Shown one piece after another: positions 2,305 to 20,388 of a stretch of DNA of 64,000 bases (the stretch's first letter is position 1; every line of letters begins with the position of its first letter). The position numbers and the translations under genes are program-made. The notes under the pieces were generated by a model that was given only the letters and a program-made list of their open reading frames with translations, was not told where the DNA came from and searched no databases. Source of the stretch: Candidatus Kaiserbacteria bacterium (GTDB lineage Bacteria; Patescibacteriota; Minisyncoccia; Phycocordibacterales; UBA918); contig JAHQWD010000002.1 in NCBI GenBank assembly GCA_019634005.1, forward strand, positions 30,969-94,968. The letters are read 5' to 3'.

Positions 2305-2634
2305 ATGGAATCAATGGGAATCATCACAAGCAAAAATCTTGCTCATCAGAGAGACAAGGGCGAAGATGTGCGTTTGTCGATACACTGTAATCTGAGCGAG
2401 GATACTGCTTTCAGCATTCTTAGTAAAAAACCAACCTTTATAGAAGGGTTCGCAGGTTTGGTTGACTTCAGGGGAATTGATAGTCAATTTGAATCAACAT
2501 TACTGGAAGATGAAAGCTTAAGCGATACGTTTTTTGTAGGATGCGACTGGAAGATGGTCGGGAATTACTTTAATAAAGCATTCAAAAATTATGAGCAAGA
2601 AAAAGAAGAAGAACAAGGAACTTTCAGCAAGTAA
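2305..2634 (+). CDS. hypothetical protein (island gene A)
   Basis: 109-aa ORF in AT-rich region, no recognisable motifs, no SD; overlaps next ORF by 44 nt. Confidence 0.35.
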   Translation: MESMGIITSKNLAHQRDKGEDVRLSIHCNLSEDTAFSILSKKPTFIEGFAGLVDFRGIDSQFESTLLEDESLSDTFFVGCDWKMVGNYFNKAFKNYEQEKEEEQGTFSK

Positions 2635-3088
2635 GCCTGTCCAAAAAGATTCTGAACCGGAAGTTGAAGTAATTAGAGATCCAAAAGGACAAGTTGTTGG
2701 TTTCAGCGCTAGTAAAGCAGAGTTTTTCTCAGGACCCTTACCTCACCCTGATTTACTTAATAAATATAAAGAAGTAGACCCGAACGTTTTAGAGACAATA
2801 ACACGCATGGCAGAACGTGAACAAACCGAAAGATTGAAACGACAAAATAAGATAGTCTTGTTTGTTGGCGGTAAATCAATATTGGGTCTGATTTTTGCTT
2901 TTTTTGTGGTGTTGGCAGGAATTGCTGCGGGAGTCTATCTGCTTATGCATGATAAATCTGCCGAAGGTTTGTTTGTAGGAATAGCACCTTTTGCAATAGT
3001 TGTTGGTACGTTTATCTTGCAAACCTATTGGGAAAAAGACGAGAAGGAAACAGAGAAGGACAAGGCTGATCTACAAGACAATATATAA
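2591..3088 (+). CDS. DUF2335-like membrane protein
   Basis: FSGPLPHPDLLNKYKEVDP motif followed by MAEREQTERLKRQNK and two TM helices matches my recollection of the DUF2335 family common on phages/ICEs; Lys-rich N-terminus. Confidence 0.55.
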   Translation: MSKKKKKNKELSASKPVQKDSEPEVEVIRDPKGQVVGFSASKAEFFSGPLPHPDLLNKYKEVDPNVLETITRMAEREQTERLKRQNKIVLFVGGKSILGLIFAFFVVLAGIAAGVYLLMHDKSAEGLFVGIAPFAIVVGTFILQTYWEKDEKETEKDKADLQDNI

Positions 3089-3096
3089 ACTATTCC

Positions 3097-3318
3097 CTAA
3101 TGAAGACTTCTATCAACGTACTCCCTCGCTTTTTGCATACCGTGAACAAGTGCTCTGTCATCTGAAATATTACCCTCAACATTTTCTATGACAGCATGGG
3201 TTCCTTCCCATCCATTTTTAACTTTCCTCATAACTTCCCACCTAATAGCACAATGATTCTTTAAACGGTTGTGAATATTAGAAGTCAGTAGATAATTTTT
3301 ATATATTTCTTCCATCAT
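3097..3318 (-). CDS. hypothetical small protein (island gene C, 73 aa)
   Basis: ORF 38 nt downstream of PIN-like gene on same strand; no motifs recognised. Confidence 0.35.
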   Translation of the reverse strand: MMEEIYKNYLLTSNIHNRLKNHCAIRWEVMRKVKNGWEGTHAVIENVEGNISDDRALVHGMQKAREYVDRSLH

Positions 3319-3356
3319 TGAGTTGTATTATAACCGACTACCATTTCAGATATGTT

Positions 3357-3794
3357 CTATTTAATATCCGATAAGGACTTAATGTCTATATCAGATTTAA
3401 ATTCATTTTTAATTCTTTTGGACAAGCCAACATCTCCAGTGAACACATAAATTGTTTCAGTGGGATCGAAAAGTTGTTCTTTCTTCAAAGCTGCAAATCT
3501 CTCAATCAAAGTATGAACGGAGGCTAAAATTGAGATATCGCCAAAGCCAGTCATGTTGAAAAAAGATCTTCCTCCGTGATTATTTAGCATTTCCTTATAC
3601 TTATTGACATAGATGGGCTCATCAAATTCATCAATGTCCGATAACCTCAGGATATTCTTGGGAAGCTTCTTACCAAAGATAGTTTGGGTCATCTCTACTT
3701 CTTCCACAACATCTGGTGCCATATAGTACTTTTTGGAAGGAGAAATTCCATTCTTAAAAATATATGTAATTCCATTTGAATCAATTAAATTCAT
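3357..3794 (-). CDS. PIN-like domain protein (putative nuclease/toxin; island gene D)
   Basis: 145 aa; N-terminal MNLIDSN (PIN beta1-like Asp), acidic PDVVEEVE, later GDISIL and FTGDVGL Asp positions compatible with a PIN/NYN fold; start ATG overlaps stop of upstream gene (ATGA). Confidence 0.4.
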   Translation of the reverse strand: MNLIDSNGITYIFKNGISPSKKYYMAPDVVEEVEMTQTIFGKKLPKNILRLSDIDEFDEPIYVNKYKEMLNNHGGRSFFNMTGFGDISILASVHTLIERFAALKKEQLFDPTETIYVFTGDVGLSKRIKNEFKSDIDIKSLSDIK

Positions 3795-5050
3795 AGACTT
3801 AGTTCACTTCTATACTTCAGAAAACCTTTTTTCTGTGGCGCTCCCCAGATTAAATGTTGCGCTTGAGTATTCGGCAATGTTCCACCTTTTATGCCCAAGT
3901 TTATTGTCTCAAAAGATTTTAGACCACAAAATTTACTTACAGAAGTTGAAACTTTAGGAGTTCTAGGATGGCCTGTGTTTTTCAATTTTATTGGTTTTGG
4001 CTTGAGACTATCAAATTCTGACGATGATATGACTCCTCTCCTTCTCAGAGTAACCAATAAAGCAGTTGGTGATACCTTGAACTTGTTTGCCAATTCATCT
4101 CGCCTACTCTCTGTGACCTTTGTCCCTCGAATTTTTTCTGTCTCTGAACGCGGTATGAGTAATTCTGAAGTTATTAAGTGAAGTCTTACCTCCTTAATAG
4201 TTGTTCCTGTAATTTTAATTGTAAAATTTGGCTCAAGTATAAATTCATATTGATCTAACCCAATAATCGTTAACAAATAAAACAAGGTGTATATCTGCCT
4301 ACTGGCAACTTCGTCCTGATTAGTTTCTGATGGCAGAAAAATGAAGGGGACATGGTCGTCTTTTATTGCAAAACCACTCGTATTTTTATAAACGCTACTT
4401 GGTACCACTCGTGTGTTCGGGAGAATCTTATGTGCAAGTGTTCCTTGCGAAACATTTATATTTTTGTTTCCCACCTTTTTTATTAGTGCTTCCAGAGTAG
4501 CTTCCTTCCCCCTATCCCGCCACATCCAGTCTCTATCAATGTCAAAATGGTCTAAGATTTTATCTGCAGCAGATTTTATACTTTCATACTTCAAAGACCC
4601 GCAAAAACTATTTGATGGAAAGATTCCTGTACTTACAAGATAATTTTGCTGACGAATCAACCGATCCACAATGCGTTTCGGAGTGATCTTTCCTTGTCCT
4701 TTCCTCTTGGCAACAATTTTCTTTGAGACCTTATGCTGCCTTTGAGTCTCAATATGATTAATTGTCTGGTTTAGGTTTGTCGTGCTAAGAAAGAACATCT
4801 GCCAAGGAATGAGTATTTTTTCGCTTTCTTCTTTCAGATTTTTGAATGTAATAGAACCAGCAGAAAATGCCTGCTGAAATATTTTTCTGTTTATAAGTTT
4901 TTCTTCGGGATAAAGGTTGAGAATTCTTTTAATAACAGAGTCATCTATCTCTACCGAATTCTGCCCATTTACTGACACCCACATACTTAATAGGATATTT
5001 TTGAGTTCTTTCGGACATAGTGCGCAACATATAGAGAAAGTAGCACACAA
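3791..5050 (-). CDS. hypothetical 419-aa protein with C-terminal helix-turn-helix-like segment (island gene E)
   Basis: Long ORF; RRDELANKFKVSPTALLVTLRRRGVIS resembles an HTH; no HExxH, P-loop or recombinase motifs seen. Track start is TTG at 5050 (SD-like AAAGGA 5 nt upstream); ATG at 4984 (MWVSVNGQ) alternative. Confidence 0.5.
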   Translation of the reverse strand: MCATFSICCALCPKELKNILLSMWVSVNGQNSVEIDDSVIKRILNLYPEEKLINRKIFQQAFSAGSITFKNLKEESEKILIPWQMFFLSTTNLNQTINHIETQRQHKVSKKIVAKRKGQGKITPKRIVDRLIRQQNYLVSTGIFPSNSFCGSLKYESIKSAADKILDHFDIDRDWMWRDRGKEATLEALIKKVGNKNINVSQGTLAHKILPNTRVVPSSVYKNTSGFAIKDDHVPFIFLPSETNQDEVASRQIYTLFYLLTIIGLDQYEFILEPNFTIKITGTTIKEVRLHLITSELLIPRSETEKIRGTKVTESRRDELANKFKVSPTALLVTLRRRGVISSSEFDSLKPKPIKLKNTGHPRTPKVSTSVSKFCGLKSFETINLGIKGGTLPNTQAQHLIWGAPQKKGFLKYRSELSL

Positions 5051-5133: not shown

Positions 5134-5481
5134 ATGGAAAATCAAAGTGCTGTTCTCTACCAAGATAAACCCTGGCTGAAGATTCTGGCATTCATTGTCA
5201 TCTGGATGATTCTTGCTGGCGAGGTTTGGGCGTATCTGGAACTTTTGCGCACCGTCAATGACCACAAGCGGAGCGCCTTCGGCGCACATGTTCCCATCCC
5301 CGACGGCGTTGGGATCATGTATATGACCATGCTGTTCTCAGTAGGGCCCGTTGGCCCCTTTCTGATACAGCTCGTCGGAAGCATGTTCGGCCAAATCATC
5401 ATCGCCGCTGTTCTTCTGCTCGGAGCAGGGGGCAATTGGCTGCTCTACAGTATCCTCGAGAATTTCGGATACTTCACCTAA
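5134..5481 (+). CDS. hypothetical polytopic membrane protein (115 aa, higher GC)
   Basis: ATG at 5134 preceded by SD AGGGAGAAG; hydrophobic ILAFIVIWMILAGEVWAYL and IIIAAVLLLGAGGNWLLY; track ORF 5074 uses TTG upstream. Confidence 0.55.
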   Translation: MENQSAVLYQDKPWLKILAFIVIWMILAGEVWAYLELLRTVNDHKRSAFGAHVPIPDGVGIMYMTMLFSVGPVGPFLIQLVGSMFGQIIIAAVLLLGAGGNWLLYSILENFGYFT

Positions 5482-5580: not shown

Positions 5581-6117
5581 CTACTCAGCCTCAACCTTCT
5601 GAAGCGGAAGTCCGACATGCCGAAGCAATGCCTCTGCCTCTTCTTTGGTTTTCGCAGTAGTCACGAGTGTGATAGCAAATCCAAACACATCTCGAATCTC
5701 TTCATCTGAAGTCTCAGGGAAGATCGTGTGCTCCTTGATTCCCAAGGTGTAGTTCCCCATCTCATCGATGGCGGTCACCTTAAGACCACGGAAGTCACGG
5801 GTGTTTGGAAGCGCAACGTGAATCAACTTATCGAGGAAGTCATTCATACGCTCCCCACGAAGGGTTACCTGATATCCAATGATATCTCCCTCACGAAGCT
5901 TAAATGTCGCAATAGACTGCTTCGCAGGACGTGGAGATGGCTTCTGTCCGGTAATCTTCGCAAGACGATCTTGCATAAGCTCGATCTTCTTCTTGTCGTC
6001 GATCTTTCCCGTACCAGTTGATACCACCACCTTCGTGATGCGAGGTGCCTGCATCACATTCTTGTAAGAGAATGTGCCTTTCAGTGCCTCAAATACAGAT
6101 TGTAGTTTTTCTTTCAT
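5581..6117 (-). CDS. rplE: 50S ribosomal protein L5
   Basis: MKEKLQSVFEALKGTFSYKNVMQAPRITKVVVSTGTG... typical L5. Confidence 0.95.
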   Translation of the reverse strand: MKEKLQSVFEALKGTFSYKNVMQAPRITKVVVSTGTGKIDDKKKIELMQDRLAKITGQKPSPRPAKQSIATFKLREGDIIGYQVTLRGERMNDFLDKLIHVALPNTRDFRGLKVTAIDEMGNYTLGIKEHTIFPETSDEEIRDVFGFAITLVTTAKTKEEAEALLRHVGLPLQKVEAE

Positions 6118-11527: not shown

Positions 11528-12208
11528 TTATTTAGCCTTTGCGGAAGATCCAACACGAGTCTCGAAGATTTCGAGCGCCGCTTCTGGCTCTGCCACAATG
11601 ACGTACTTAAAGGTGAGTAAATCGACCGGGTTAATGTCCTTTGCTTGAGACACTACCACGTTTCCAAAGTTACGGAAACTACGTTCTACGTTCTCATCAC
11701 GTGATGGAAGAACGATAAGTGCAGCATTCTTTCGCTTTGTGGAAAGCATCTCAGACCCCTTGATGCTACCGAGAGCAGTGATGACGTTCTTCGCATCAGC
11801 TGCCTTTGGTGCCTCAAATCCGAATGCATCCACGAAGAGAATCTCCTTGTCTGCGTTCTTCTTAGAAAGTACGGTTGCAAGCGCCTTGGCACGCACCTTC
11901 TTGTTGATCTTCTTGCTGTAGTCCTTTTCAGAGAGTGGTCCATGGGTGACTCCTCCTCCTGTCCAGATTGGAGAACGACGAGATCCGTGACGCGCACGTC
12001 CAGTACCCTTCTGCTTCCACGGCTTCTTTCCTCCACCGCGAACCTCAGAACGGTCCTTCGCATCTGCTGTCCCCGCACGTGCGTTCGACTGCATAGATAC
12101 CACCACCTCGTGAACGAGGTCTGCGTTCCATGCCACGTCAAACACCTCCTTTGGCAAAGTGATATCACTCACTTTCTTTCCTTCAATAGAGTATACGTTT
12201 GCTTTCAT
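11528..12208 (-). CDS. rplD: 50S ribosomal protein L4
   Basis: ...GGGKKPWKQKGTGRARHGSRRSPIWTGGGVTHGP... typical L4. Confidence 0.95.
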   Translation of the reverse strand: MKANVYSIEGKKVSDITLPKEVFDVAWNADLVHEVVVSMQSNARAGTADAKDRSEVRGGGKKPWKQKGTGRARHGSRRSPIWTGGGVTHGPLSEKDYSKKINKKVRAKALATVLSKKNADKEILFVDAFGFEAPKAADAKNVITALGSIKGSEMLSTKRKNAALIVLPSRDENVERSFRNFGNVVVSQAKDINPVDLLTFKYVIVAEPEAALEIFETRVGSSAKAK

Positions 12209-12211
12209 ATG

Positions 12212-12832
12212 CTAGATGCTACGAACTTCGACTAATGTTCCCTTTCGACCTGGTACGGCTCCTGATACCACGAGGACATTGTCCTCTGTGTTCACCTGAA
12301 GCACTTTAAGATTCTTTACACTGACGCGGTCACTTCCCATGCGTCCCGCCATACGTGTTCCTTTTTGCACCCGCTGGATGCCTCCAATACCGATAGATCC
12401 CGGCGCACGAAGGGTATGCTTCTGTCCGTGAGATCCAGGACCTCCACCGAAGTTGTATCGTTTTACAACTCCCTGGAATCCCTTACCCTTTGAAACCGCA
12501 GAAACCACAATCTGGTCACCTGGCTCAAAGACGGATGCATCCATAGTCTGTCCTACTTCCATTCCTTCGATGTTCTCATCGAAGTTAGTACGTGGACGAA
12601 ACTCCTTCATGAACTTCGCCGCTCCTCCCTCGATACCACGCTGTGCTTTCGCTACACGTGACTCTTTCTGAGGAACAGTCGCGATCTGTACGGCATCATA
12701 CCCATCCTTCTCTGTACCCTTCACCTGCGTGATAGTTGCAGGGGATACCCGGAGGATGGTCGCAGCCATAACCTCTCCGTCTTCGTTGAAGACTTGGGTC
12801 ATGCGCTCCTTAGTACCGACAATGAATTTCAT
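12212..12832 (-). CDS. rplC: 50S ribosomal protein L3
   Basis: MKFIVGTKERMTQVF...KGKGFQGVVKRYNFGGGPGSHG typical L3. Confidence 0.95.
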   Translation of the reverse strand: MKFIVGTKERMTQVFNEDGEVMAATILRVSPATITQVKGTEKDGYDAVQIATVPQKESRVAKAQRGIEGGAAKFMKEFRPRTNFDENIEGMEVGQTMDASVFEPGDQIVVSAVSKGKGFQGVVKRYNFGGGPGSHGQKHTLRAPGSIGIGGIQRVQKGTRMAGRMGSDRVSVKNLKVLQVNTEDNVLVVSGAVPGRKGTLVEVRSI

Positions 12833-13117
12833 TACTGAATATGTCTTTGTGACTTATAAAAGCTTTCAAGTGACCTCCAAAACAAAAACCGCATATAGCG
12901 GAGCACAAGCTCACGAATATACGCGGTCTTTGTGCCCATTGGTCCGTCCGTAAACGTACGTAGGTCTTTTAAAAGCTGTGGGCAGTATACGGGTATTTGG
13001 GGAGATTGCAAGCTTTGAGCTTATGCGTATCCCCGTGCGAAAGAAGTCCTACACACAAACTCCCAAAGCCGTAACCGTGAAATAATATCTGTGGCATCAT
13101 TAGTATACAAAAGTCCC

Positions 13118-13160
13118 TTGAACACGCGAAGTGTCCAAGGGACAAAGGGTCAAAGACCAA
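13118..13160 (-). terminator. Rho-independent terminator after inserted high-GC gene
   Basis: Minus read gtcccttggacacttcgcgtgttcaagggac + ttttgtatac. Confidence 0.5.
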
Positions 13161-13170
13161 AGTGCAGAGG

Positions 13171-13766
13171 TCAGACGGTCTGTTGCTGAACCACCAGACG
13201 ACGGCGGTCGCCCGCGCCCCAGACGCCGTCGTAAGCAAAGCATTCCACGCTCGCCCTGAGCTTGCCAACGTACACGCAGACGCGGGCGACAAACAGCTCA
13301 CCGTTTACCTCAAAAAGGAAGAACGTGCCGCAACCTTCTTGCCGAAGTGAGTAGCGATGATTGCGACAGAACTCGACAATCTGCCCTTGATGCAGAACGA
13401 GTTTACACGGATCGCCATGTGATTCAAACAGCTGTTTGAACGTGCCGTTGCGTGTCATTTCATGCACGTCAACAGCGGTCTCGGGAGTGTCTTTGCCGGG
13501 AACATTGGTGCCCCAGTTTCTGAAGTCACCGTCGAGGTAGCCCGTAAAGACGTCAGTCGCTTCGGCGAGCGTCGTCTCGCCCCTGGTCGGAGCGAGAGTG
13601 ACGGTTCTGAGGTGGCGAGTGTATTCCCGTTCTTCTTCCGCCGCAAGACCGGAAAGAAATTTTTTCAACCCTTTCGGGTTGTCAATCCACCCCTGCATTA
13701 CACCCGAAGACATGGCCGGCACATTCTCAAACATGCAGGCCCAGAATTTCATCTCTTGCTTACTCA
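13171..13766 (-). CDS. hypothetical protein (198 aa), compositionally distinct (high GC) gene inserted between rpsJ and rplC
   Basis: Start trimmed to ATG at 13766 (MSKQEMKFWACMF..., AGGAAA upstream). GC-rich stretches (ccagacgacggcggtcgcccgcgccccagacgccgtcg) unlike flanking ribosomal genes. No motif recognised. Confidence 0.5.
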
Positions 13767-13857
13767 TGACGTTTTTTCCTTTCCAGGATTTCGTCGTTGA
13801 CAAAATACTCTAAACTACTTTTTGGTATACTATATCTACAGAAGTTTGTCAAACACA

Positions 13858-13886
13858 ACAAAACCCGCCAAACGGCGGGTTTTGTC
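13858..13886 (-). terminator. Rho-independent terminator after rpsJ (aaaacccgccgtttggcgggttttg on minus)
   Basis: 6-7 bp GC stem + U-tract; followed by TTGACA-17-TATACC promoter-like sequence for the inserted gene. Confidence 0.55.
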
Positions 13887-13903
13887 TACTGTGACAACAA
13901 TCC

Positions 13904-14260
13904 TTACATCATCTTCACGTCAATGTTGACGCCAGATGGCAAAGAAAGATTAGTGAGTGCCTCAACGACTTTCGCACTCGGATTCAAGATATCGATAACA
14001 CGCTTGTGCATTCGCATCTCGAATTGTTCTCGCGCATCTTTGTACACGAATGTTGAACGATTCACCGTATATTTCTTAATCTCAGTGGGAAGCGGGATTG
14101 GACCAACAACCTTCGCGTCAAAACGCATAGCGGTGTCGATAATCTGCTTTACTGAGGCATCAAGAATTTTGTGCTCGTACGCACGGACTCGAATCCGGAG
14201 TTTATTGATGTCCCCAGGCATCGCGTCCTTCTTTGCTTTAGTGTCTGTTTTTGTTGTCAT
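13904..14260 (-). CDS. rpsJ: 30S ribosomal protein S10
   Basis: ...[43 protein letters not shown]... typical S10; ATG at 14221 (SD GAAGGA) is an alternative start. Confidence 0.93.
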
Positions 14261-14286
14261 AGATCAGTTTTGTTTGAGTCTTCGCC

Positions 14287-15477
14287 TTACGCGATAATCT
14301 TTGTTACCACTCCAGCTCCAACAGTCTTACCACCCTCACGGATAGCGAAGTTCTTCTGCTCCTCGAGCGCAATTGGCGCTACAAGTTTCACCTTAAAGGT
14401 TGCAGTGTCTCCTGGCATAACCATCTCTGTTCCCTCGGCAAGCGTAACGTCTCCTGTTACGTCTGTCGTTCCGATGTAGAACTGTGGCTTGTATCCAGAG
14501 AAGAATGGTGTGTGACGACCTCCTTCGTCCTTACCAAGTACGTATACCTCAGCCTCGAACTCTGTGTGCGGAGTGATAGATCCCTTCGCAGCAAGTACCT
14601 GTCCTCGGTGTACGTCCTCCTTCTTAGTTCCGCGGAGAAGAATTCCCGCGTTGTCTCCAGCCTGTGCAGAATCTAGAGACTTGTTGAACATCTCAACACC
14701 AGTAACGGTGGTGACGGTAGTATCCTTGATACCAACGATCTCTACTTCGTCTCCAACCTTAACCTGACCGCGCTCTACACGACCAGTTACTACTGTTCCA
14801 CGTCCTTCAATTGAGAAGATGTCCTCAATTGGCATAAGGAATGGCTTGTCGAGCTCTCGCTCTGGCTCTGGGAAGTACTCATCCATCGCATCTACAAGCT
14901 CAATAACCTTCGCTCCCCAGTCGCCTGCAGGCTCCTCAAGCGCCTTAAGTCCTGAACCCTTGATGATTGGTGCATTCTCACCATCAAATCCGTTTGCAGT
15001 AAGAAGCTCACGAAGCTCCTCCTCTACGAGCATTACCATCTCCTCATCGTCAACCATGTCGGTCTTGTTAAGGAATACGATAATCTTTGGTACTCCAACC
15101 TGCTTTGCAAGAAGTACGTGCTCACGAGTCTGAGGCATCGCTCCATCAGTCGCAGCTACTACGAGTACCGCACCATCCATCTGTGCAGCACCAGTGATCA
15201 TGTTCTTGATGTAGTCGGCGTGACCTGGCGCATCGATGTGCGCGTAGTGACGCTTTGGTGTCTCGTACTCAGAGTGAGAAAGAGAAATAGTAATACCACG
15301 CGCCTTCTCCTCTGGCGCCTTGTCAATGTCTCCAACGTCCTTAAGGTTTGCGGCGTAGCCGTCTCCCTTTGCGTTGAGCACATTTAGAATTGCGGCAGTA
15401 AGCGTAGTCTTACCGTGGTCAACGTGACCAATAGTTCCTACGTTTACGTGCGGCTTTGAACGATCAAAATCTGCCAT
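14287..15477 (-). CDS. tuf: elongation factor Tu
   Basis: [30 protein letters not shown]... full-length EF-Tu. Confidence 0.97.
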
Positions 15478-15738
15478 ATTCGTAAATAATTTAGCTTATA
15501 TTCTATCCGCACCGTACTGCCATTGTATTAAATGGAGGTACGTATGGAGTGGTAAGGGCGCGAGAACGCAGTGCCTTACCGCTACATACATAAATTCGAT
15601 AAAGAGCGATGCTCCTCACCGACCCTCTACACGCCAAAAAGCGCATAAAGAGCGATGCGGTGTCCGCCATGGTACATGAGTGCGCCATATTTTGCAATAC
15701 CAAAAAGCCGCGCCGATGTGGCGCGACTTTATTCATTG

Positions 15739-16218
15739 TCAGTGAACGAGCTTCGTTTCCTCGGCATGCTGAACGAGAAGGGTATCGAAAAGCTTTTGCT
15801 CTGCCGCAAAGGCATCCTCGAGTACTTCGTACTCGCCAGCAATAGTGCTTTCAGTAGACACGTGCACTTCTTGCTCTGTGTGAAGCAGTGCATGGTGTGC
15901 GTCTTGAGGAACGCGACCGCAGATACACGGTGAGCCAGTGTTGAACTGCTCCATCCAATGCGTCAGTTTCGGGCACTGCTTGCCCGAAACACGCGCTGCG
16001 ATGATTACTGAGAAATACGGGTCTTTGCTGTTCGACCCATATGCGACAATCAGTCGCGTCACGGGAATTCCCAGCAAACGAACACTTGTTCCGTGAATCC
16101 CAACAGATCCGTGTATCTGGTACCAGCCCTCGTGCCTAAATGCAAACAGGGCGAGGGTACTTTTCATCGTTCTGAAGCTTGGCGTTACCACCAGAGCCTT
16201 CTTTCCGTCGAACGGCAT
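15739..16218 (-). CDS. hypothetical protein (159 aa)
   Basis: ORF with terminator-like hairpin downstream (15690-15725); weak AYGSN and HGT/CICGR motifs, not assignable. Confidence 0.45.
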   Translation of the reverse strand: MPFDGKKALVVTPSFRTMKSTLALFAFRHEGWYQIHGSVGIHGTSVRLLGIPVTRLIVAYGSNSKDPYFSVIIAARVSGKQCPKLTHWMEQFNTGSPCICGRVPQDAHHALLHTEQEVHVSTESTIAGEYEVLEDAFAAEQKLFDTLLVQHAEETKLVH

Positions 16219-16341
16219 GACACTCTCCCTTTTCTGTTTTACCGTAGTTTATACTACACCCAGATCTGTTATTTGACAATAACTCTTATACACTGTCTAA
16301 AATACACCGTATTGATTTTGTCTTTTGATACAATTGAGGGA

Positions 16342-17466
16342 ATGCTTAAAAGTCTTCTCAAAAAGATACGTTCAAAAAAGAAATACGAGCGGCTTATAAA
16401 GGTGGTGATCGATAGTGCGGCAATCAAGCATAATCTCTCTGTATTCCAGACACAGTACAATGTCGCTGTCGCTCCAGTACTGAAGAGTAATGCGTACGGA
16501 CACGGTCTCGTTGAGATAGGAAACATAGTAGACACAGAAGAGATTCCTTTTATTTGTGTCGACACGTTCTTTGAGGCACTCACACTCCGCAGTAGTGGTA
16601 TACAAAAACCCATTCTCATCATCGGCTACACACCCCATGAGACAATCGTGCACAATAAACTGAGAAACACTTCTTTTGCAGTCATAAGTCTTGAAGAGCT
16701 TAAACGACTTGCCACTTCAAAAAAACCCGCTTCAATACACCTCAAGATAGACACAGGCATGCATCGCCACGGTGTCCATGTTGAAGAACTCCATGAAGCC
16801 CTTAATCTCATTGCACACTCTTCGCTTATACTCGAAGGTGTCTACACACACCTTGCAGATGCAGACACCAAAGGTTCTACACTTACCGATACGCAGATTG
16901 ATGCGTGGAATACTGCGGTACAGACCATACGATCCCACATCCCAACCGTCACATACTTCCACTGCGGACACTCTGCGGGAAGTTTCTATTCCAAGCATAT
17001 AGATGCTAATGGTATTCGCTTGGGAATTGGGCTCTACGGAGTCAATGTCGGACTTGATGACCTAGATCTCAAACCAGCGTTAGAGATGAAGACAAGAATC
17101 ACCAGTATCAAAACGCTCAAACAAGGAGAAACCATCGGGTACAATGGCACCTTTACCGCAGAAAAAGACATGCGTGTGGCAACAATCCCTGTTGGATATA
17201 ACGAGGGACTTGACCGAAGACTTTCAAATAAAGGGAGTGTGTTAGTACACGGAACAGTCTGCCCTATTCTTGGAAGAGTTAACATGAATATCACGTCTAT
17301 TGATGTATCCCAGATCCCAGACATTAAACTCGATGATGAAGTGACCATCATTAGTGGTGACAAGACACAGCCAAACTCCATAGAGCACCTGGCAAAGCTT
17401 TGCGAAACTATCCCCTATGAACTCCTTGTTCATATACAGAGTACTCTCTACAGGAAAGTTATATAA
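16342..17466 (+). CDS. alr: alanine racemase
   Basis: VAVAPVLKSNAYGHGLVEIG (PLP-Lys region) and C-terminal YNEGLDRRLSNKGSVLVHG...PILGRVNMNITSIDV typical Alr; start trimmed to ATG 16342. Confidence 0.9.
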   Translation: MLKSLLKKIRSKKKYERLIKVVIDSAAIKHNLSVFQTQYNVAVAPVLKSNAYGHGLVEIGNIVDTEEIPFICVDTFFEALTLRSSGIQKPILIIGYTPHETIVHNKLRNTSFAVISLEELKRLATSKKPASIHLKIDTGMHRHGVHVEELHEALNLIAHSSLILEGVYTHLADADTKGSTLTDTQIDAWNTAVQTIRSHIPTVTYFHCGHSAGSFYSKHIDANGIRLGIGLYGVNVGLDDLDLKPALEMKTRITSIKTLKQGETIGYNGTFTAEKDMRVATIPVGYNEGLDRRLSNKGSVLVHGTVCPILGRVNMNITSIDVSQIPDIKLDDEVTIISGDKTQPNSIEHLAKLCETIPYELLVHIQSTLYRKVI

Positions 17467-17471
17467 ATCAA

Positions 17472-17500
17472 AAAGCCGTCTTCTTTCGAGAGACGGCTCT
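17472..17500. terminator. Stem-loop between convergent alr (+) and beta-rich secreted protein (-)
   Basis: agccgtct-tctttcgag-agacggct 8-bp stem; weak U-tracts. Confidence 0.4.
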
Positions 17501-17520
17501 TCAAGAACTCGGTACAAAAC

Positions 17521-18119
17521 TTAGAACTTGTACTTGATCGCCACCTGAACAGTTGTGGTATCACCGAAGATGCCCACCTCTGTTCCAACTTCAAACGGCA
17601 GGGATTTCACGTTCATCCACACCTGTGGTTGGGCGACATTCGGGGCATTGTGCCGTATCCGAACGAAACCCGAGGTATAGATGTCGATGTTATCCGTCAG
17701 TCGGACATTCTCCGACAACCATGCGAACTTAACCTGTGCTCGATCGCCAGCATCATGCGTTACCGCAGGATACCAAGTGGCTCTTACGAACTTCATTCCC
17801 GGAACTGAGAGTTGGATACCAGCCCCAGCTTTGACGGTGAAGCCGCCGTTGGTGGCGCCAACCTCCGTCGAAGCGAAAGCGTATTTGCTCAGAGAGCAAT
17901 CGACGACGTGGTTTGTGAAGAAGTCCTTCGACGTGTTCGTGACATAGAGATCAACGAACCCGAAACCTCCGCATGTGCCTTTTTTCCAGGCGTATTCGGG
18001 AGTAACGGTCGTGAGACCGCCGTTGTTCACCGCCTGTAGTATATGAACGTCCCCCACAAGGAAGTCATCTGCGTAGACTGGTGTGGCAAGTAGCATTAGT
18101 GCCAAAGAGCTTTTTAACA
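17521..18119 (-). CDS. secreted beta-rich protein, possible outer-membrane beta-barrel (OmpW/OmpA-like); uncertain
   Basis: GTG start at 18119 (SD AGGAGGA) gives signal peptide VLKSSLALMLLATPVYA|DD; alternating hydrophobic pattern and C-terminal ...VQVAIKYKF (terminal Phe as in OM barrels). Confidence 0.5.
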
Positions 18120-18155
18120 CGCGATCCTCCTCTTTTTGATTGCGCTGTCCCTCGT

Positions 18156-18184
18156 ATAATAACACACTGATAACCTCATGTCAA
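18156..18184 (-). promoter_or_regulatory. Sigma70-like promoter TTGACA-17-TATTAT (minus) for beta-rich protein gene
   Basis: Minus read ttgacatgaggttatcagtgtgttattat. Confidence 0.5.
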
Positions 18185-18210
18185 AAAAGACCCCTTTCGG
18201 GGTCTTTTTT
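18184..18210. terminator. Rho-independent terminator after fusA (aaaaaagacccctttcggggtctttttt)
   Basis: Perfect 7-bp stem GACCCC/GGGGTC flanked by A6/T6. Confidence 0.65.
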
Positions 18211-18213
18211 GAC

Positions 18214-20388
18214 TTACTCGTCTCCTCCTTTGTTCTGTACTCCTCGCTCTCGCTTGATCTCCTCCGCAACGTTTGGTGGAACAACTGCATAGTGATCAAA
18301 CTCCATCGTCATCGATGCACGCCCTTGTGTCATCGAACGAAGTGAACTGGTGTATCCAAACATTTCAGAAAGTGGAACTTTCGCATGAATGATGGTCTTT
18401 CCACCAATCTCCTCGGTTCCTTCTACCTGTCCACGCTTTGATGAAAGGTTTCCGTTGATGTCTCCCATGTACTCTTCTGGAGTACGTACCTCTACCTTCA
18501 TCACCGGCTCAAGGATAACGGCATTCGCACGCTCTGCAGCCTCTTTGAAGGCGTTGATACCTGCGAGCTTGAAAGCAATCTCTGAAGAGTCCACATCGTG
18601 GTAACTACCATCGAAGAGTTCGACTGAGATATCCTCCATCTTGTACCCTGCAACGAATCCACGACTCATTGCCTCCTTACATCCCTTCATTACTGCTGGA
18701 ATGTATTCCTGTGGAATGGCACCTCCCTTAATATTGTTGACGAACTCAAAGTGGTCATCACGAGTCACATTCTTTGCAACCTCTTCATCTTCACCAAGTG
18801 CGACCAGTGGCTTGATGCGAAGCTTTACGTGTCCGTACTGTCCACGTCCTCCAGACTGCTTCACGTACTTGTGCTCTGCTTCAGCCTCAGACTGGATAGT
18901 CTCACGATACGCTACCTGTGGCTGTCCGATGTTCGCCTCGACGCCGAACTCTCGCTTCATACGATCGATAATAATATCGAGGTGGAGTTCTCCCATACCT
19001 GCGATAATCGTTTCAAGTGTCTCTTCGTCAGTTGATACCTTGAATGTCGGGTCCTCATCAGCAAGACGCTTCAACGCTACCGACATTTTCTCCTGGTCAT
19101 TCTTGGTCTTTGGCTCTACACGTACTGCAACCACTGGCTCGGGGAAGGTAATCTGCTCAAGAAGGATTGGATTTGCCTCATCACAGAGTGTGTGTGATGT
19201 TTTCACTTCCTTAATACCCACCGCAGCAGCAATCTCTCCTGCGTATACTTCCTCGACTTCCTCACGCTTGTCTGCCTGAAGACGTACGATACGTCCCACA
19301 CGCTCTTTGTTTCCTGTAGACGCATTCAAGATATATGAACCCGCCTTTACGGTACCAGAGTACACACGGAAGAAGGCAAGCTGTCCAACGAACTTGTCGT
19401 CCTGAAGCTTGAAAGCAAGCGCACAGAATGGTTCGTCATCTGATGGCTTTCGCTCAAGTGTCTCCTCCTCATTATTTGGGTTTGTTCCCTCTACTGGAGG
19501 AAGGTCAAGTGGAGAGGGGAGATAATCTACCACTGCATCAAGTACCAGCTGTACACCGATGTTCTTCAGTGCGGTACCTGTCATGATCGGGAAGATTGCG
19601 TTTGCGATAACCGCCTTACGAAGGGTCTTCTTAAGATCTTCAAGTGAAGGCTCTTCACCACCAAGGTATGCCTCCATAAGTGCGTCGTCGTGCTCCACCA
19701 CACGCTCGATAAGTTCCGCTCGCCACTTCTTTGCATCCTCCACCATGTTCTCTGGTATATCCTCTTCAGTCACATCCATTCCCATTTCTCCACCGAAACG
19801 GTATGCCTTCATGGTAACGAGATCCACCACTCCGCTCATATCATCCTCTGCACCGATTGGAAGCTGGATACGTACTGCCTTCTTTGAAAGACGATCCTCA
19901 ATAGACTTCACTGATGCATCAAAGTCTGCACCAAGTTTGTCCATTTTGTTCACGAAACAGATACGTGGCACGTTTGCCTCGTCTGCGTACCCCCAGTTTG
20001 TTTCAGTCTGTGGCTCTACACCAGCAGCACCGTCAAATACCACCACCGCACCGTCGAGCACACGCATCGAACGCTTTACCTCTGCGGTAAAGTCGATGTG
20101 TCCTGGGGTATCAATGATGTTAAAGGTGTACTGAAGATCCTTGTTCGTACGATCTGTCTCAAGGGTCTTTGCCCAGTTACATGAGATCGCTGCGGCAGTA
20201 ATGGTAATACCGCGCTCTCGCTCTTGCTCCATCCAGTCGGTAACGGTCTCACCGTCGTGTACCTCACCGATCTTGTGACTCATTCCGGTATAGAAGAGTA
20301 CGCGCTCTGATGTCGTCGTCTTTCCTGCGTCTACGTGCGCAACAATACCGAAGTTTCGTAGTTTCTCTAGTGGAAATGCTCTGCTCAT
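18214..20388 (-). CDS. fusA: elongation factor G
   Basis: [35 protein letters not shown]... 724 aa EF-G. Confidence 0.97.

What the first reader, a model, noticed from the sequence alone, without database searches (positions are those of the whole stretch)
12833..13903. Compositionally foreign (high-GC) orphan gene inserted between rpsJ and rplC with its own promoter and terminator
The 198-aa ORF 13171-13766 has long GC-rich runs unlike neighbouring ribosomal genes. It is preceded by a TTGACA-17-TATACC element right after the rpsJ terminator and followed by a hairpin terminator (13118-13160). A further ~285 bp of non-coding DNA lies before rplC. The protein (MSKQEMKFWACMFENVPAMSSGVMQGWIDNPKGL...FLFEVNGELFVARVCVYVGKLRASVECFAYDGVW) matches nothing I recognise. 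It is a recent horizontal acquisition candidate placed where it will be highly expressed.
Basis: partly seen in the sequence, partly recalled or inferred. Interest (0 to 1): 0.55.

Follow-up and report, generated by a model that had tools for sequence, protein, structure and literature searches.

The report
Solo DGR hypervariable-protein gene between rpsJ and rplC
The "orphan" gene belongs to a large family of hypervariable binding proteins that candidate-phyla bacteria rewrite with a diversity-generating retroelement (DGR), and here it sits alone, without its reverse transcriptase, in an 836-bp cassette that a near-identical relative replaces with a methylase cassette.

Summary
The ORF is real (13171-13767, minus strand, 198 aa) and has the highest GC and GC3 of 60 ORFs in the window. 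It is not an orphan: 1,532 cluster representatives match it. In five independent loci, homologues lie next to a template repeat (TR), a bAvd gene and a reverse transcriptase. Their 3' ends differ from the TR almost only at TR adenines, which is the DGR signature. The window copy keeps the variable region (VR, 13181-13296), three TTTGRYC repeats, a covarying GC hairpin (13113-13143) and a 67-nt element that is 92-95% identical to a DGR-linked locus. No TR or reverse transcriptase occurs in the 64 kb.

A relative with 93-98% identical flanks carries DNA methylase plus MTaX1 at the same junction. This defines the insert as 13017-13852. The remaining "non-coding" DNA (12833-13016) is the native rplC promoter and leader.

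High GC is a trait of DGR target genes, which are GC-richer than their own cassette's RT and Avd, so it does not prove foreign origin. The predicted fold is weakly C-type-lectin-like.

Verdict: a new member of a known kind. It is a solo DGR target cassette in an insertion hot spot, and whether it is still diversified in trans is unresolved.

The parts
13860..13883 (-). rpsJ intrinsic-terminator hairpin (AAAACCCGCC-GTTT-GGCGGGTTTT) with a T-rich tail. It is the last host sequence before the insert.
   Evidence: Read directly. RNA fold gives dG -16.0. It lies in the left flank that is 96% identical to L108 as far as 13853.
13017..13852 (-). The 836-bp inserted cassette: promoter-like site, short leader, variable-protein gene, DGR target-site elements and a truncated spacer.
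   Evidence: Homology with the close relative L108 ends at 13853 and resumes at 13016. L108 carries 2,423 bp (DNA_methylase + MTaX1) instead. Insert GC is 0.514.
13824..13852 (-). Promoter-like TTGACA (13852-13847), 17-nt spacer, TATACC (13829-13824). The -35 hexamer is the first six bases of the insert.
   Evidence: Not called by the consensus scan because the -10 lacks the final T. It aligns with the family's TTGACT-17-TATTAT promoter region, but the family's leader hairpin is missing.
13171..13767 (-). Variable-protein (DGR target-type) gene of 198 aa plus stop, preceded by the Shine-Dalgarno-like sequence GGAAAGGA. GenBank protein MBX2866437.1, annotated as hypothetical, Candidatus Kaiserbacteria MAG.
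   Evidence: AlphaFold2 model has pLDDT 87.6.
13633..13767 (-). N-terminal three-helix module (residues 1-45, MxKQExKFWARMFENxPxMSxxVxQGWIDNPKxLKKFL type). The same module is attached to different C-terminal domains in other proteins.
   Evidence: Alignment A1 (P0036-P0040 share only this module). Helices 3-18, 21-29 and 31-42 in the model. The second target in L091 shares it.
13174..13620 (-). Core domain (residues ~50-198). High-confidence model with a weak C-type-lectin-like fold.
13181..13296 (-). Variable region (VR) of 116 nt, codons L158 to Q195 plus CA. It corresponds to the stretch that is templated by a TR in DGR-linked homologues.
   Evidence: VR/TR pairs with A-only mismatches occur in L003, L088, L091, L099 and L112. 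The window differs from the conserved family TR at 17 of 32 TR-adenine positions. VR column identity is 0.64 at TR-A positions against 0.93 at other positions. A content is 12.5% and GC 0.65.
13140..13161 (-). Three tandem TTTGRYC repeats (TTTGGTC, TTTGACC, c, TTTGTCC) between the stop codon and the hairpin. They are part of the region beyond the VR/TR homology, which I call IMH-like after the initiation-of-mutagenic-homing element.
   Evidence: Conserved in nearly all family members. Their function is inferred, not tested.
13113..13143 (-). GC-rich hairpin (13-bp stem, loop TTCGC) 27 nt after the stop codon, followed by TTTTGT. It is a terminator-like and DGR target-site hairpin.
   Evidence: Called by the terminator scan. 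dG is -21.3. It is present at +25 to +33 in most family members. 93.4% of cells are paired, 4 of 13 pairs show compensatory changes, and the covariation score exceeds all 500 shuffles and all slid controls.
13046..13112 (-). Conserved post-hairpin element: a TATACT box (13107-13102), then GCCACAGATATTATTTCACGGTTACGGCTTTGGGAGTTTGTGTGTAGGAC. It is the start of the target-to-TR spacer of full DGR modules and is truncated here.
   Evidence: It falls within the 120-nt stretch (13187-13068, from the end of the VR through the hairpin) that is 92-95% identical to L003, against 65-85% in the coding sequence. It is shared with the DGR-linked L003, L088, L091, L099 and L112 and with the solo L001, L104 and L105.
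12984..13011 (-). Native rplC promoter: TTGCAA, 16-nt spacer, TATACT.
   Evidence: It is the only promoter-like site the scan found in 12000-15800. It is conserved upstream of rplC in L007, L008, L009, L108 and L109 whatever lies upstream.
12833..12983 (-). Native, structured rplC 5' leader. It is not part of the insert.
   Evidence: Conserved in four Paceibacteria-type genomes, with 26 predicted pairs of which 8 show compensatory changes. About 95% identical in L108. No Rfam family matches.

Best explanation
The ORF encodes a variable protein of the type diversified by diversity-generating retroelements (DGRs) of Patescibacteria (the candidate phyla radiation, CPR). It has an N-terminal three-helix module and a divergent C-type-lectin-like domain. 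The last ~40 codons of that domain form the variable region (VR).

In full modules of this family (L003, L088, L091, L099, L112) the order is: promoter, leader hairpin, target gene with VR, TTTGRYC repeats, GC hairpin, ~300-nt spacer, template repeat (TR), bAvd (on the opposite strand where it is identified), and reverse transcriptase. The reverse transcriptase copies TR RNA and misincorporates opposite adenines. The cDNA then replaces the VR, so AAY codons of the TR become any of many codons in the protein's binding surface.

The window holds only the front part of such a module, from the -35 box to about 95 nt past the hairpin's 5' end. It is an 836-bp self-contained cassette lying between the rpsJ terminator and the rplC promoter, a junction where close relatives carry other cargo.

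Shown:
- homology to the family;
- the DGR linkage of the family;
- the adenine-specific variation pattern;
- an intact VR and target-site elements;
- absence of TR and RT from the 64 kb;
- the exact insert boundaries.

Inferred: the copy is still a competent target that a TR/Avd/RT elsewhere in the genome could rewrite in trans (my estimate is about 0.5). Otherwise it is a recently orphaned target that now encodes a fixed binding protein. The ligand and cellular role are unknown. There is no signal peptide or transmembrane segment by eye, as reported for CPR targets in PMC8144416.
For: Family size.

DGR linkage of homologues:
- L003 has bAvd and RVT_1 adjacent. Its VR (4461-4586) and TR (4892-5017) show 19 mismatches in 126 nt, 17 of them at TR adenines.
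- Non-A versus A mismatches over a 100-nt window are 0/15 in L003, 1/17 in L088, 0/12 and 2/11 in the two L091 units, and 3/23 in L099.
- L112, which has the same N-terminal type and is 62% identical, shows 0/12 with RVT_1 downstream.

Variation pattern:
- TRs of three loci are nearly identical and rich in AAY codons.
- VR columns are 0.93 identical at non-A positions and 0.64 at TR-A positions.
- The window differs at 17 of 32 TR-A positions.
- Among six solo copies, pairwise difference is 0.61 at TR-A positions and 0.23 elsewhere. VR third codon positions (0.31) are more conserved than third positions upstream of the VR (0.54).

Target-site elements:
- The hairpin is at a fixed distance from the stop and shows covariation.
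- The repeats and post-hairpin element are 92-95% identical to L003.
- For the Bordetella phage DGR, the IMH element plus a hairpin downstream of the VR are required and sufficient for targeting (PMC3240598).

Fold.

Insert boundaries and alternative cargo.

Precedents:
- The nearest relative in the genome collection (L007) has a complete, unrelated DGR directly upstream of the rplC promoter.
- Ribosomal protein genes lying between CPR DGR genes have been noted before (PMC5758913).
Against: - No TR was found in the window, even when any number of adenine mismatches plus 15 others were allowed.
- No reverse transcriptase or Avd was found by tblastn.
- The rest of the 215-kb contig and the rest of the MAG could not be searched. 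The genome is not in genome contigs, and none of the best 120 RT clusters lies on a 215,184-bp contig.
- The copy is truncated on both sides relative to full modules. It lacks the leader hairpin, and the spacer is cut.
- Two assemblies of this locus have identical VRs, so there is no direct sign of ongoing diversification.
- Remote targets more than 100 kb from the RT were reported only outside the CPR set (PMC5758913).
Confidence: 0.8

Rival explanations
1. Orphaned (fossil) DGR target. The cassette was copied or left behind without its TR, Avd and RT, no cognate DGR exists in the genome, and the VR is frozen. The gene now encodes a fixed-sequence binding protein or is on its way to decay.
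For: - No TR or RT occurs in 64 kb.
- The module is truncated at both ends.
- Many family members are solo: L001/L087, L005, L104, L105, L110, L111, L094 and L102.
- Some of these (L110, L111) have clearly lost the repeats and hairpin element, so fossilisation does happen in this family.
- The VR is identical in two assemblies.
- CPR DGRs were reported to have mostly single, adjacent targets (PMC5758913).
Against: - The ORF is intact and keeps the family's near-invariant residues.
- The target-site DNA is the best-conserved part of the cassette. It is 92-95% identical to a DGR-linked locus, against 65-85% in the coding sequence. The hairpin is intact. This is unlike the true fossils L110 and L111.
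- DGR reverse transcriptases are very common in this group, with at least 8,000 clusters at E <= 1e-30, and the nearest relative in the genome collection has one.
Confidence: 0.4
2. One reading: a compositionally foreign orphan gene of unknown type, recently acquired from a high-GC donor and placed for high expression. It has no relation to any known system.
For: - GC and GC3 are the highest in the window.
- The gene is absent from a 93-98% identical relative at this site.
- There is no hit in Pfam, NCBIfam, PADLOC or PDB sequences.
Against: - 1,532 cluster representatives match it.
- The family is DGR-linked in five independent loci.
- High GC is shared by target genes inside cassettes whose RT and Avd are AT-rich like the host, and by the family in hosts of GC 0.37-0.50.
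- The gene is insulated by hairpins on both sides and has a sub-consensus promoter.
Confidence: 0.03
3. The hairpin and flanking elements are only an ordinary transcription terminator and promoter of a small accessory gene. Their conservation reflects recent common descent of the cassettes, not a DGR target-site function.
For: - The hairpin plus T-run fits the intrinsic-terminator consensus.
- A TATACT box follows it.
- The solo copies could all be recent derivatives of linked modules, because the spacer remnants differ in length between the solo copies.
Against: - The hairpin sits at a fixed distance from the stop (+25 to +33) across members as low as 45-50% identical, with compensatory changes.
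- The repeats and hairpin are more conserved than synonymous sites of the adjacent gene.
- In the Bordetella phage DGR, a hairpin immediately downstream of the VR is a required target-site element whose stem structure, not its sequence, matters (PMC3240598).
- The two roles are not mutually exclusive.
Confidence: 0.15

Closest known systems
DGR variable (target) proteins of Patescibacteria/CPR (RT clade 2 of Roux et al. 2021, PMC8144416; 'CPR set' of Wu et al. 2018, PMC5758913)
   Same: - Small proteins with no recognisable Pfam, transmembrane or signal domain.
- The VR is at the extreme C-terminus.
- AAY-rich TRs and adenine-specific VR/TR mismatches in homologues.
- bAvd and RVT_1 partners.
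- DGR parts interleaved with ribosomal protein genes have been noted in CPR (PMC5758913).
   Different: - This copy has no TR, Avd or RT within 64 kb and is truncated to an 836-bp cassette.
- I could not check whether the family corresponds to one of the published target clusters or 'UVR' classes, because the supplements are not held.
Remote (non-adjacent) DGR targets, such as the Treponema denticola DGR with seven remote targets (as cited in PMC5758913 and PMC4891356)
   Same: A VR-bearing gene with intact downstream target-site elements but no RT or TR nearby. Such targets are diversified in trans by a single TR and RT.
   Different: - Remote targets more than 100 kb away were reported only for non-CPR lineages (PMC5758913).
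- Here a cognate TR has not been found, so trans-diversification is an inference.
Bordetella phage BPP-1 Mtd target site (IMH plus hairpin/cruciform; Guo et al. 2011, PMC3240598)
   Same: A GC-rich inverted repeat lies shortly downstream of the end of VR/TR homology. The stem is conserved in structure but variable in sequence.
   Different: - The hairpin is longer (13 bp) and lies ~37 nt beyond the end of TR homology, with three TTTGRYC repeats in between.
- It is followed by a T-run, so it can also act as a terminator.
- No functional test exists for this clade.
C-type-lectin-fold DGR variable proteins (Mtd, TvpA 2y3c, archaeal AvpA, Thermus TaqVP; PMC5006420, PMC6328139)
   Different: - There is no Foldseek hit.
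- There is no match to FGE-sulfatase, DUF1566 or Fib_succ_major in Pfam, unlike the target of the neighbouring-lineage DGR in L007.

Membership tests
DGR (diversity-generating retroelement) target gene | Homologues have a VR at the 3' end of the ORF paired with a nearby TR that differs essentially only at TR adenines | tested here: met
   Non-A versus A mismatches: L003 0/15, L088 1/17, L091 0/12 and 2/11, L099 3/23, L112 0/12.
DGR (diversity-generating retroelement) target gene | A cognate TR for this copy's own VR | tested here: not met
   None in the 64-kb window by blastn or by an adenine-tolerant pattern allowing 15 further mismatches. None in genome contigs or viral contigs, but the genome itself is absent from those collections. 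The other 151 kb of the contig and the rest of the MAG could not be tested.
DGR (diversity-generating retroelement) target gene | A DGR-type reverse transcriptase (and usually Avd) in the same genome, typically adjacent | tested here: not met
   No tblastn hit in the window to two RTs or two Avds. None of the best 120 of at least 8,000 RT clusters lies on a 215,184-bp contig. Genome-wide presence could not be tested.
DGR (diversity-generating retroelement) target gene | Variation among family members concentrated at positions templated by TR adenines | tested here: met
   VR column identity is 0.64 at TR-A positions and 0.93 at non-A positions. The window differs at 17 of 32 TR-A positions. 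Among solo copies, pairwise difference is 0.61 against 0.23.
DGR (diversity-generating retroelement) target gene | Target-site elements downstream of the VR (IMH-like sequence not shared with the TR, plus a hairpin/cruciform) | tested here: met
   VR/TR homology ends at CAGCAACA. The repeats and a covarying 13-bp hairpin follow. Their function was not tested.
DGR (diversity-generating retroelement) target gene | Ongoing diversification (VR polymorphism within a population) | tested here: inconclusive
   The two assemblies of this locus are identical over 900 nt. Read-level data are not available here.
C-type lectin (CLec) fold | Structural similarity of the VR-bearing domain to CLec domains | tested here: inconclusive
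   [not shown]
Variable cargo at an insertion hot spot (genomic islet) | Different unrelated cargo at the same junction in closely related genomes, with sharp homology breakpoints | tested here: met
   L108 has flanks 93-98% identical and a 2,423-bp methylase/MTaX1 cargo, against 836 bp here. The breaks are at 13853|13852 and 13017|13016. L007 has a full DGR upstream of the same rplC promoter.
Intrinsic terminator | GC-rich stem-loop followed by a T-run | tested here: met
   13143-13113 was called by the scan with 13 pairs and the tail TTTTGTATAC. dG is -21.3.

The most novel reading that the evidence does not exclude
Short, self-contained 'VR cassettes' (promoter, target gene, VR, TTTGRYC repeats, hairpin, ~70-nt element) may be a dispersed, exchangeable class of accessory units in CPR genomes. 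They would be rewritten in trans by a DGR located elsewhere, so that one reverse transcriptase serves several scattered hypervariable genes. The rpsJ|rplC junction would be one of several r-protein-operon hot spots where such cassettes and defence-type cargo (methylase/MTaX1, whole DGRs) are swapped between near-identical strains. Remote targeting has not been documented for CPR DGRs.
Probability: 0.3. Interest if true: 0.6.

Novelty: new member of a known kind. Interest (0 to 1): 0.42.

Why it matters
- **Annotation.** The gene is deposited as 'hypothetical protein' and matches no Pfam or NCBIfam model. It can now be placed in a very large family (at least 1,500 clusters at 50% identity) of DGR-diversified binding proteins of Patescibacteria. 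The family's cis elements, fold class and module architecture are described here.
- **A caveat for scans.** Extreme GC or GC3 in AT-rich CPR genomes can flag DGR target genes rather than foreign DNA.
- **Operon plasticity.** The most conserved gene junction in bacteria (rpsJ-rplC) is a cargo-swapping site in this lineage. Near-identical genomes carry different inserts there.
- **A test case.** If the solo copy is rewritten in trans, it would be a tractable example of remote targeting in CPR, where the biology of DGR targets is essentially unknown.

Tried and rejected
- **Sequence libraries.** Pfam, NCBIfam, PHROGs, PADLOC and PDB-sequence searches of the protein found nothing meaningful. The PHROG hits at E ~0.15 and the antibody and designed-protein PDB hits are chance.
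- **Rfam.** Scans at gathering and at E-value thresholds gave only sub-threshold matches driven by the terminator hairpins.
- **tRNA.** There are no tRNA or tmRNA genes near the locus, so no tRNA-type attachment site.
- **Fold searches.** Foldseek against PDB and BFVD gave no hit. The afdb50 library was unavailable.
- **Search for the cognate TR.** I tried blastn, an adenine-tolerant regex in the window, and IUPAC pattern scans of genome contigs and viral contigs. The genome is not in those collections.
- **Search for the RT on the same contig.** I used the 'longest contig' field of RT homologues. This was uninformative because at least 8,000 clusters exist and only 120 are listed.
- **Phage origin.** Only two distant relatives occur in 2.9 million viral contigs, and neither has an RT or TR nearby.
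- **Population variation.** Comparing paired assemblies found essentially none. The one exception is a single VR difference between L093 and L094.
- **Technical failures.** The first alignment was too diverse for the metagenome scan. A mixed-register hairpin alignment gave a meaningless consensus. One alignment (A9) contained two sequences I had mistyped; it was discarded and redone as A10.
- **Spurious ORF.** Considered and rejected because of the family's conservation and the high-confidence fold.
Full report
**What is there**

All genes in this stretch are on the minus strand: tuf 14287-15477, rpsJ 13904-14260, a 198-aa ORF, rplC 12212-12832, then rplD, rplW and rplB. The gene is 13171-13767.

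- rpsJ ends with a hairpin at 13883-13860 (dG -16) and a T-rich tail.
- TTGACA (13852-13847), a 17-nt spacer and TATACC (13829-13824) follow. The consensus scan does not call this site because the -10 lacks the final T.
- The ORF is followed by a 13-bp-stem hairpin at 13143-13113 with a T-run, and then by 280 nt before rplC.
- The ORF is the compositional extreme of the window: GC 0.554 and GC3 0.641, against 0.470 +/- 0.039 and 0.441 +/- 0.068 for 60 ORFs. It ranks 60 of 60 for both.

The physical observation therefore holds, with small coordinate corrections.

**Not an orphan**

Pfam, NCBIfam, PHROGs, PADLOC and PDB sequences give nothing. The large protein collections tell a different story. 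There are 40 close hits, the few named ones being Candidatus Parcubacteria and Nomurabacteria. There are also 1,532 representatives of 50%-identity clusters at E <= 1e-3, of which 894 are at E <= 1e-10.

The alignment shows a well-conserved ~140-residue core. Its last ~40 residues alternate invariant and hypervariable columns: LFVAxVxVxxGxLxAxVxRFxxDxVWxAxxRxRLVVxQQT.

**The family is a DGR target family**

A DGR (diversity-generating retroelement) rewrites a variable region (VR) in a target gene from a template repeat (TR), using a reverse transcriptase that misreads adenines.

- In the complete Candidatus Nomurabacteria genome CP060227.1 (L003), the homologue is followed by a bAvd gene and an RVT_1 reverse transcriptase. 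Its 3' end (4461-4586) matches a repeat ~300 nt downstream (4892-5017). There are 19 mismatches in 126 nt, 17 of them at adenines of the downstream copy.
- The same holds in four further independent loci. Non-adenine versus adenine mismatches are L088 1/17, L091 0/12 and 2/11 (two target-TR units served by one Avd-RT), L099 3/23, and L112 0/12. L112 has the window's N-terminal type and is 62% identical.
- The TRs of three loci are almost identical and rich in AAY codons.
- Across VRs, column identity is 0.93 at non-adenine positions and 0.64 at TR-adenine positions. The window's VR (13181-13296) differs from the family TR at 17 of 32 TR-adenine positions.

This is the defining signature of a DGR.

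**The cis elements**

- Immediately after the stop codon, nearly all members have three TTTGRYC repeats (window 13161-13140). A GC hairpin follows at +25 to +33, followed by Ts.
- On seven same-register sequences the hairpin is 93.4% paired. Four of 13 pairs show compensatory changes, and the covariation score exceeds all 500 shuffles and all slid controls.
- Then comes a TATACT box and an element containing GGTTACGGC (window 13112-13046). In full modules this is the start of the ~300-nt spacer leading to the TR.
- The ~120 nt from the end of the VR through the hairpin to most of this element (13187-13068) are the best-conserved part of the whole unit. They are 92-95% identical to L003, against 65-85% in the coding sequence.
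- For the Bordetella phage DGR, the IMH (initiation of mutagenic homing) sequence plus a hairpin just downstream of the VR are required and sufficient for targeting, and stem structure rather than sequence matters (PMC3240598).

**What the window lacks**

- There is no TR. blastn finds none, and an adenine-tolerant pattern finds none even with 15 extra mismatches.
- There is no reverse transcriptase or Avd in the 64 kb.
- The family's usual TTGACT-17-TATTAT promoter and 23-bp leader hairpin (13 covarying pairs) are also missing. Homology begins at the -35-like TTGACA.
- I could not reach the rest of the genome. It is not in genome contigs, since the pattern did not even find the VR itself. The pattern found nothing in viral contigs. 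An RT search returns at least 8,000 clusters, and none of the best 120 lies on a 215,184-bp contig.

**Insert boundaries and hot spot**

The organism is a MAG named Candidatus Kaiserbacteria bacterium, and the ORF is MBX2866437.1, annotated as hypothetical. An L3 protein at least 90% identical led to a close relative, L108. Its tuf, rpsJ, rplC, rplD, rplW and rplB are 93-98% identical at the nucleotide level.

- At the same junction L108 carries DNA_methylase plus MTaX1 (2,423 bp).
- Homology stops at 13853|13852, right after the rpsJ terminator. It resumes at 13017|13016, right before TTGCAA-16-TATACT.
- The insert is therefore 13017-13852, 836 bp.
- The 184 nt from 13016 to 12833 are the native rplC promoter and a structured leader. 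They are conserved upstream of rplC in L007, L008, L009, L108 and L109 whatever lies upstream.
- In L007, the nearest relative in the species collection, a complete but unrelated DGR sits directly upstream of that same promoter. It has a Fib_succ_major target, bAvd, a TR with 0-1 non-A and 13 A mismatches, and RVT_1.
- Across 80 genomes the rpsJ-rplC gap is usually under 110 bp. It is 300-1,500 bp in many Patescibacteria.
- Ribosomal protein genes lying between CPR DGR genes were noted before (PMC5758913).

**Composition**

- The family has GC 0.53-0.58 and GC3 ~0.63-0.68 in most loci, where host GC is 0.37-0.50.
- Within complete cassettes the target gene (0.47-0.54) is GC-richer than the RT (0.34-0.39) and Avd (0.37-0.45) of the same cassette. 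This is also true of the unrelated L007 target.
- The VR is the extreme part (GC 0.65, A 12.5%), as expected when adenines are the mutable bases.

High GC is thus a property of these target genes and not, by itself, evidence of a foreign donor. The comparative evidence, not the composition, shows that the gene is an insertion.

**Protein**

AlphaFold2 on 35 sequences gives pLDDT 87.6, and about 95 for residues 50-180. The model has three N-terminal helices and an alpha/beta domain.

- Foldseek finds nothing.

I read this as a very divergent CLec-like scaffold. That is consistent with the rule for DGR variable regions (PMC8144416), but it is not proven.

**Solo copies**

I compared family members that have enough flanking DNA to judge.

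- Linked to a DGR: L003, L088, L091, L099 and L112.
- No TR or RT within reach: the window, L001/L087, L005, L094, L102, L104, L105, L110 and L111.

The solo copies fall into two kinds. The window, L001, L104 and L105 keep the repeats, the hairpin and a spacer remnant whose length differs between copies. L110 and L111 have lost these elements and look like true fossils.

Among six solo copies, pairwise difference is 0.61 at TR-adenine positions and 0.23 elsewhere. VR third codon positions (0.31) are more conserved than third positions just upstream of the VR (0.54). This fits repeated overwriting from a conserved TR. It could also arise if each solo copy escaped independently from a linked module.

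The two assemblies of the window locus are identical.

**Conclusion**

The gene is a DGR-type variable-protein gene. It is carried on a truncated, self-contained cassette in an insertion hot spot between the rpsJ terminator and the rplC promoter.

I put about 0.9 on that identity. I put about 0.5 on the copy still being rewritten in trans by a DGR elsewhere in the genome, and about 0.4 on it being recently orphaned. Remote DGR targets are known (PMC5758913, PMC8144416) but have not been documented for CPR elements.

It is a new member of a known kind. It is useful for annotation and as a caveat for GC-based scans, and it is moderately interesting for DGR biology.

Noticed in passing
window 12833-13011 (minus strand); also L007:3325-3503, L008:1300-1482, L009:3335-3503, L108:4817-5000: rplC has its own promoter (TTGCAA-16-TATACT) and a ~150-nt conserved, structured 5' leader in this lineage. 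The consensus fold has 26 predicted pairs, 8 with compensatory changes. It is present regardless of what lies upstream and matches no Rfam family. It is a candidate ribosomal-protein autoregulatory leader.
   Followed up: partly
L001:3835-4003, L003:3822-4003, L005, L088, L089, L090, L091, L097, L098 (upstream of the target genes): The family's target genes are preceded by a strong TTGACT-17-TATTAT promoter and a 23-bp leader hairpin with 13 covarying pairs. The window copy lacks both. The function is unknown; it could be regulatory RNA or a DNA cruciform.
   Followed up: partly
window 13140-13161 (minus strand) and the equivalent position in nearly all family loci: Three tandem TTTGRYC heptamers lie between the stop codon and the hairpin. 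They may be a protein-binding or homing element specific to this DGR clade.
   Followed up: no
L007:456-3265: The nearest relative in the species collection (Candidatus Nomurabacteria HK-STAS-PATE-30) has a complete DGR directly upstream of the rplC promoter, and no rpsJ within 3.5 kb. The DGR has a Fib_succ_major target, bAvd, a TR at ~1904-2043 and RVT_1.
   Followed up: yes
L108:2431-4837 and L108:7973-9428: The close relative carries DNA_methylase plus MTaX1 at the rpsJ|rplC junction. It also has a three-ORF insert between rplB and rpsS that the window lacks. Ribosomal-protein operons in this species-level group are peppered with variable cargo.
   Followed up: partly
L091:2944-6559: Two different target genes, each with its own downstream TR (3854-3953 and 5153-5252), precede a single Avd-RT pair. 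The second target shares only the window protein's N-terminal module.
   Followed up: partly
window 15478-18216: fusA (18217-20388) and tuf are separated by three genes. The first is a 191-214-aa ORF with a secretion-signal-like N-terminus, its own TTGACA promoter and terminator, and GC3 of 0.61 (17521-18165, minus). The second is alanine racemase on the opposite strand (16093-17466). The third is a 159-aa ORF with no Pfam match (15739-16218). The str operon is therefore interrupted as well.
   Followed up: partly
window 2591-5050: A low-GC islet (GC 0.34-0.39) lies between rplE (5581-6117) and rpsH (1481-1861). It holds a 419-aa and a 145-aa ORF with no Pfam match, and a DUF2335 ORF on the opposite strand. 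It is probably another insertion inside the spc operon.
   Followed up: no
L110:4339-4400 and L111:1209-1288: Two solo family members have replaced the repeats, hairpin and spacer element with an unrelated terminator. One of them shows changes at non-adenine VR positions. They are likely true fossil DGR targets and would make useful negative controls.
   Followed up: partly
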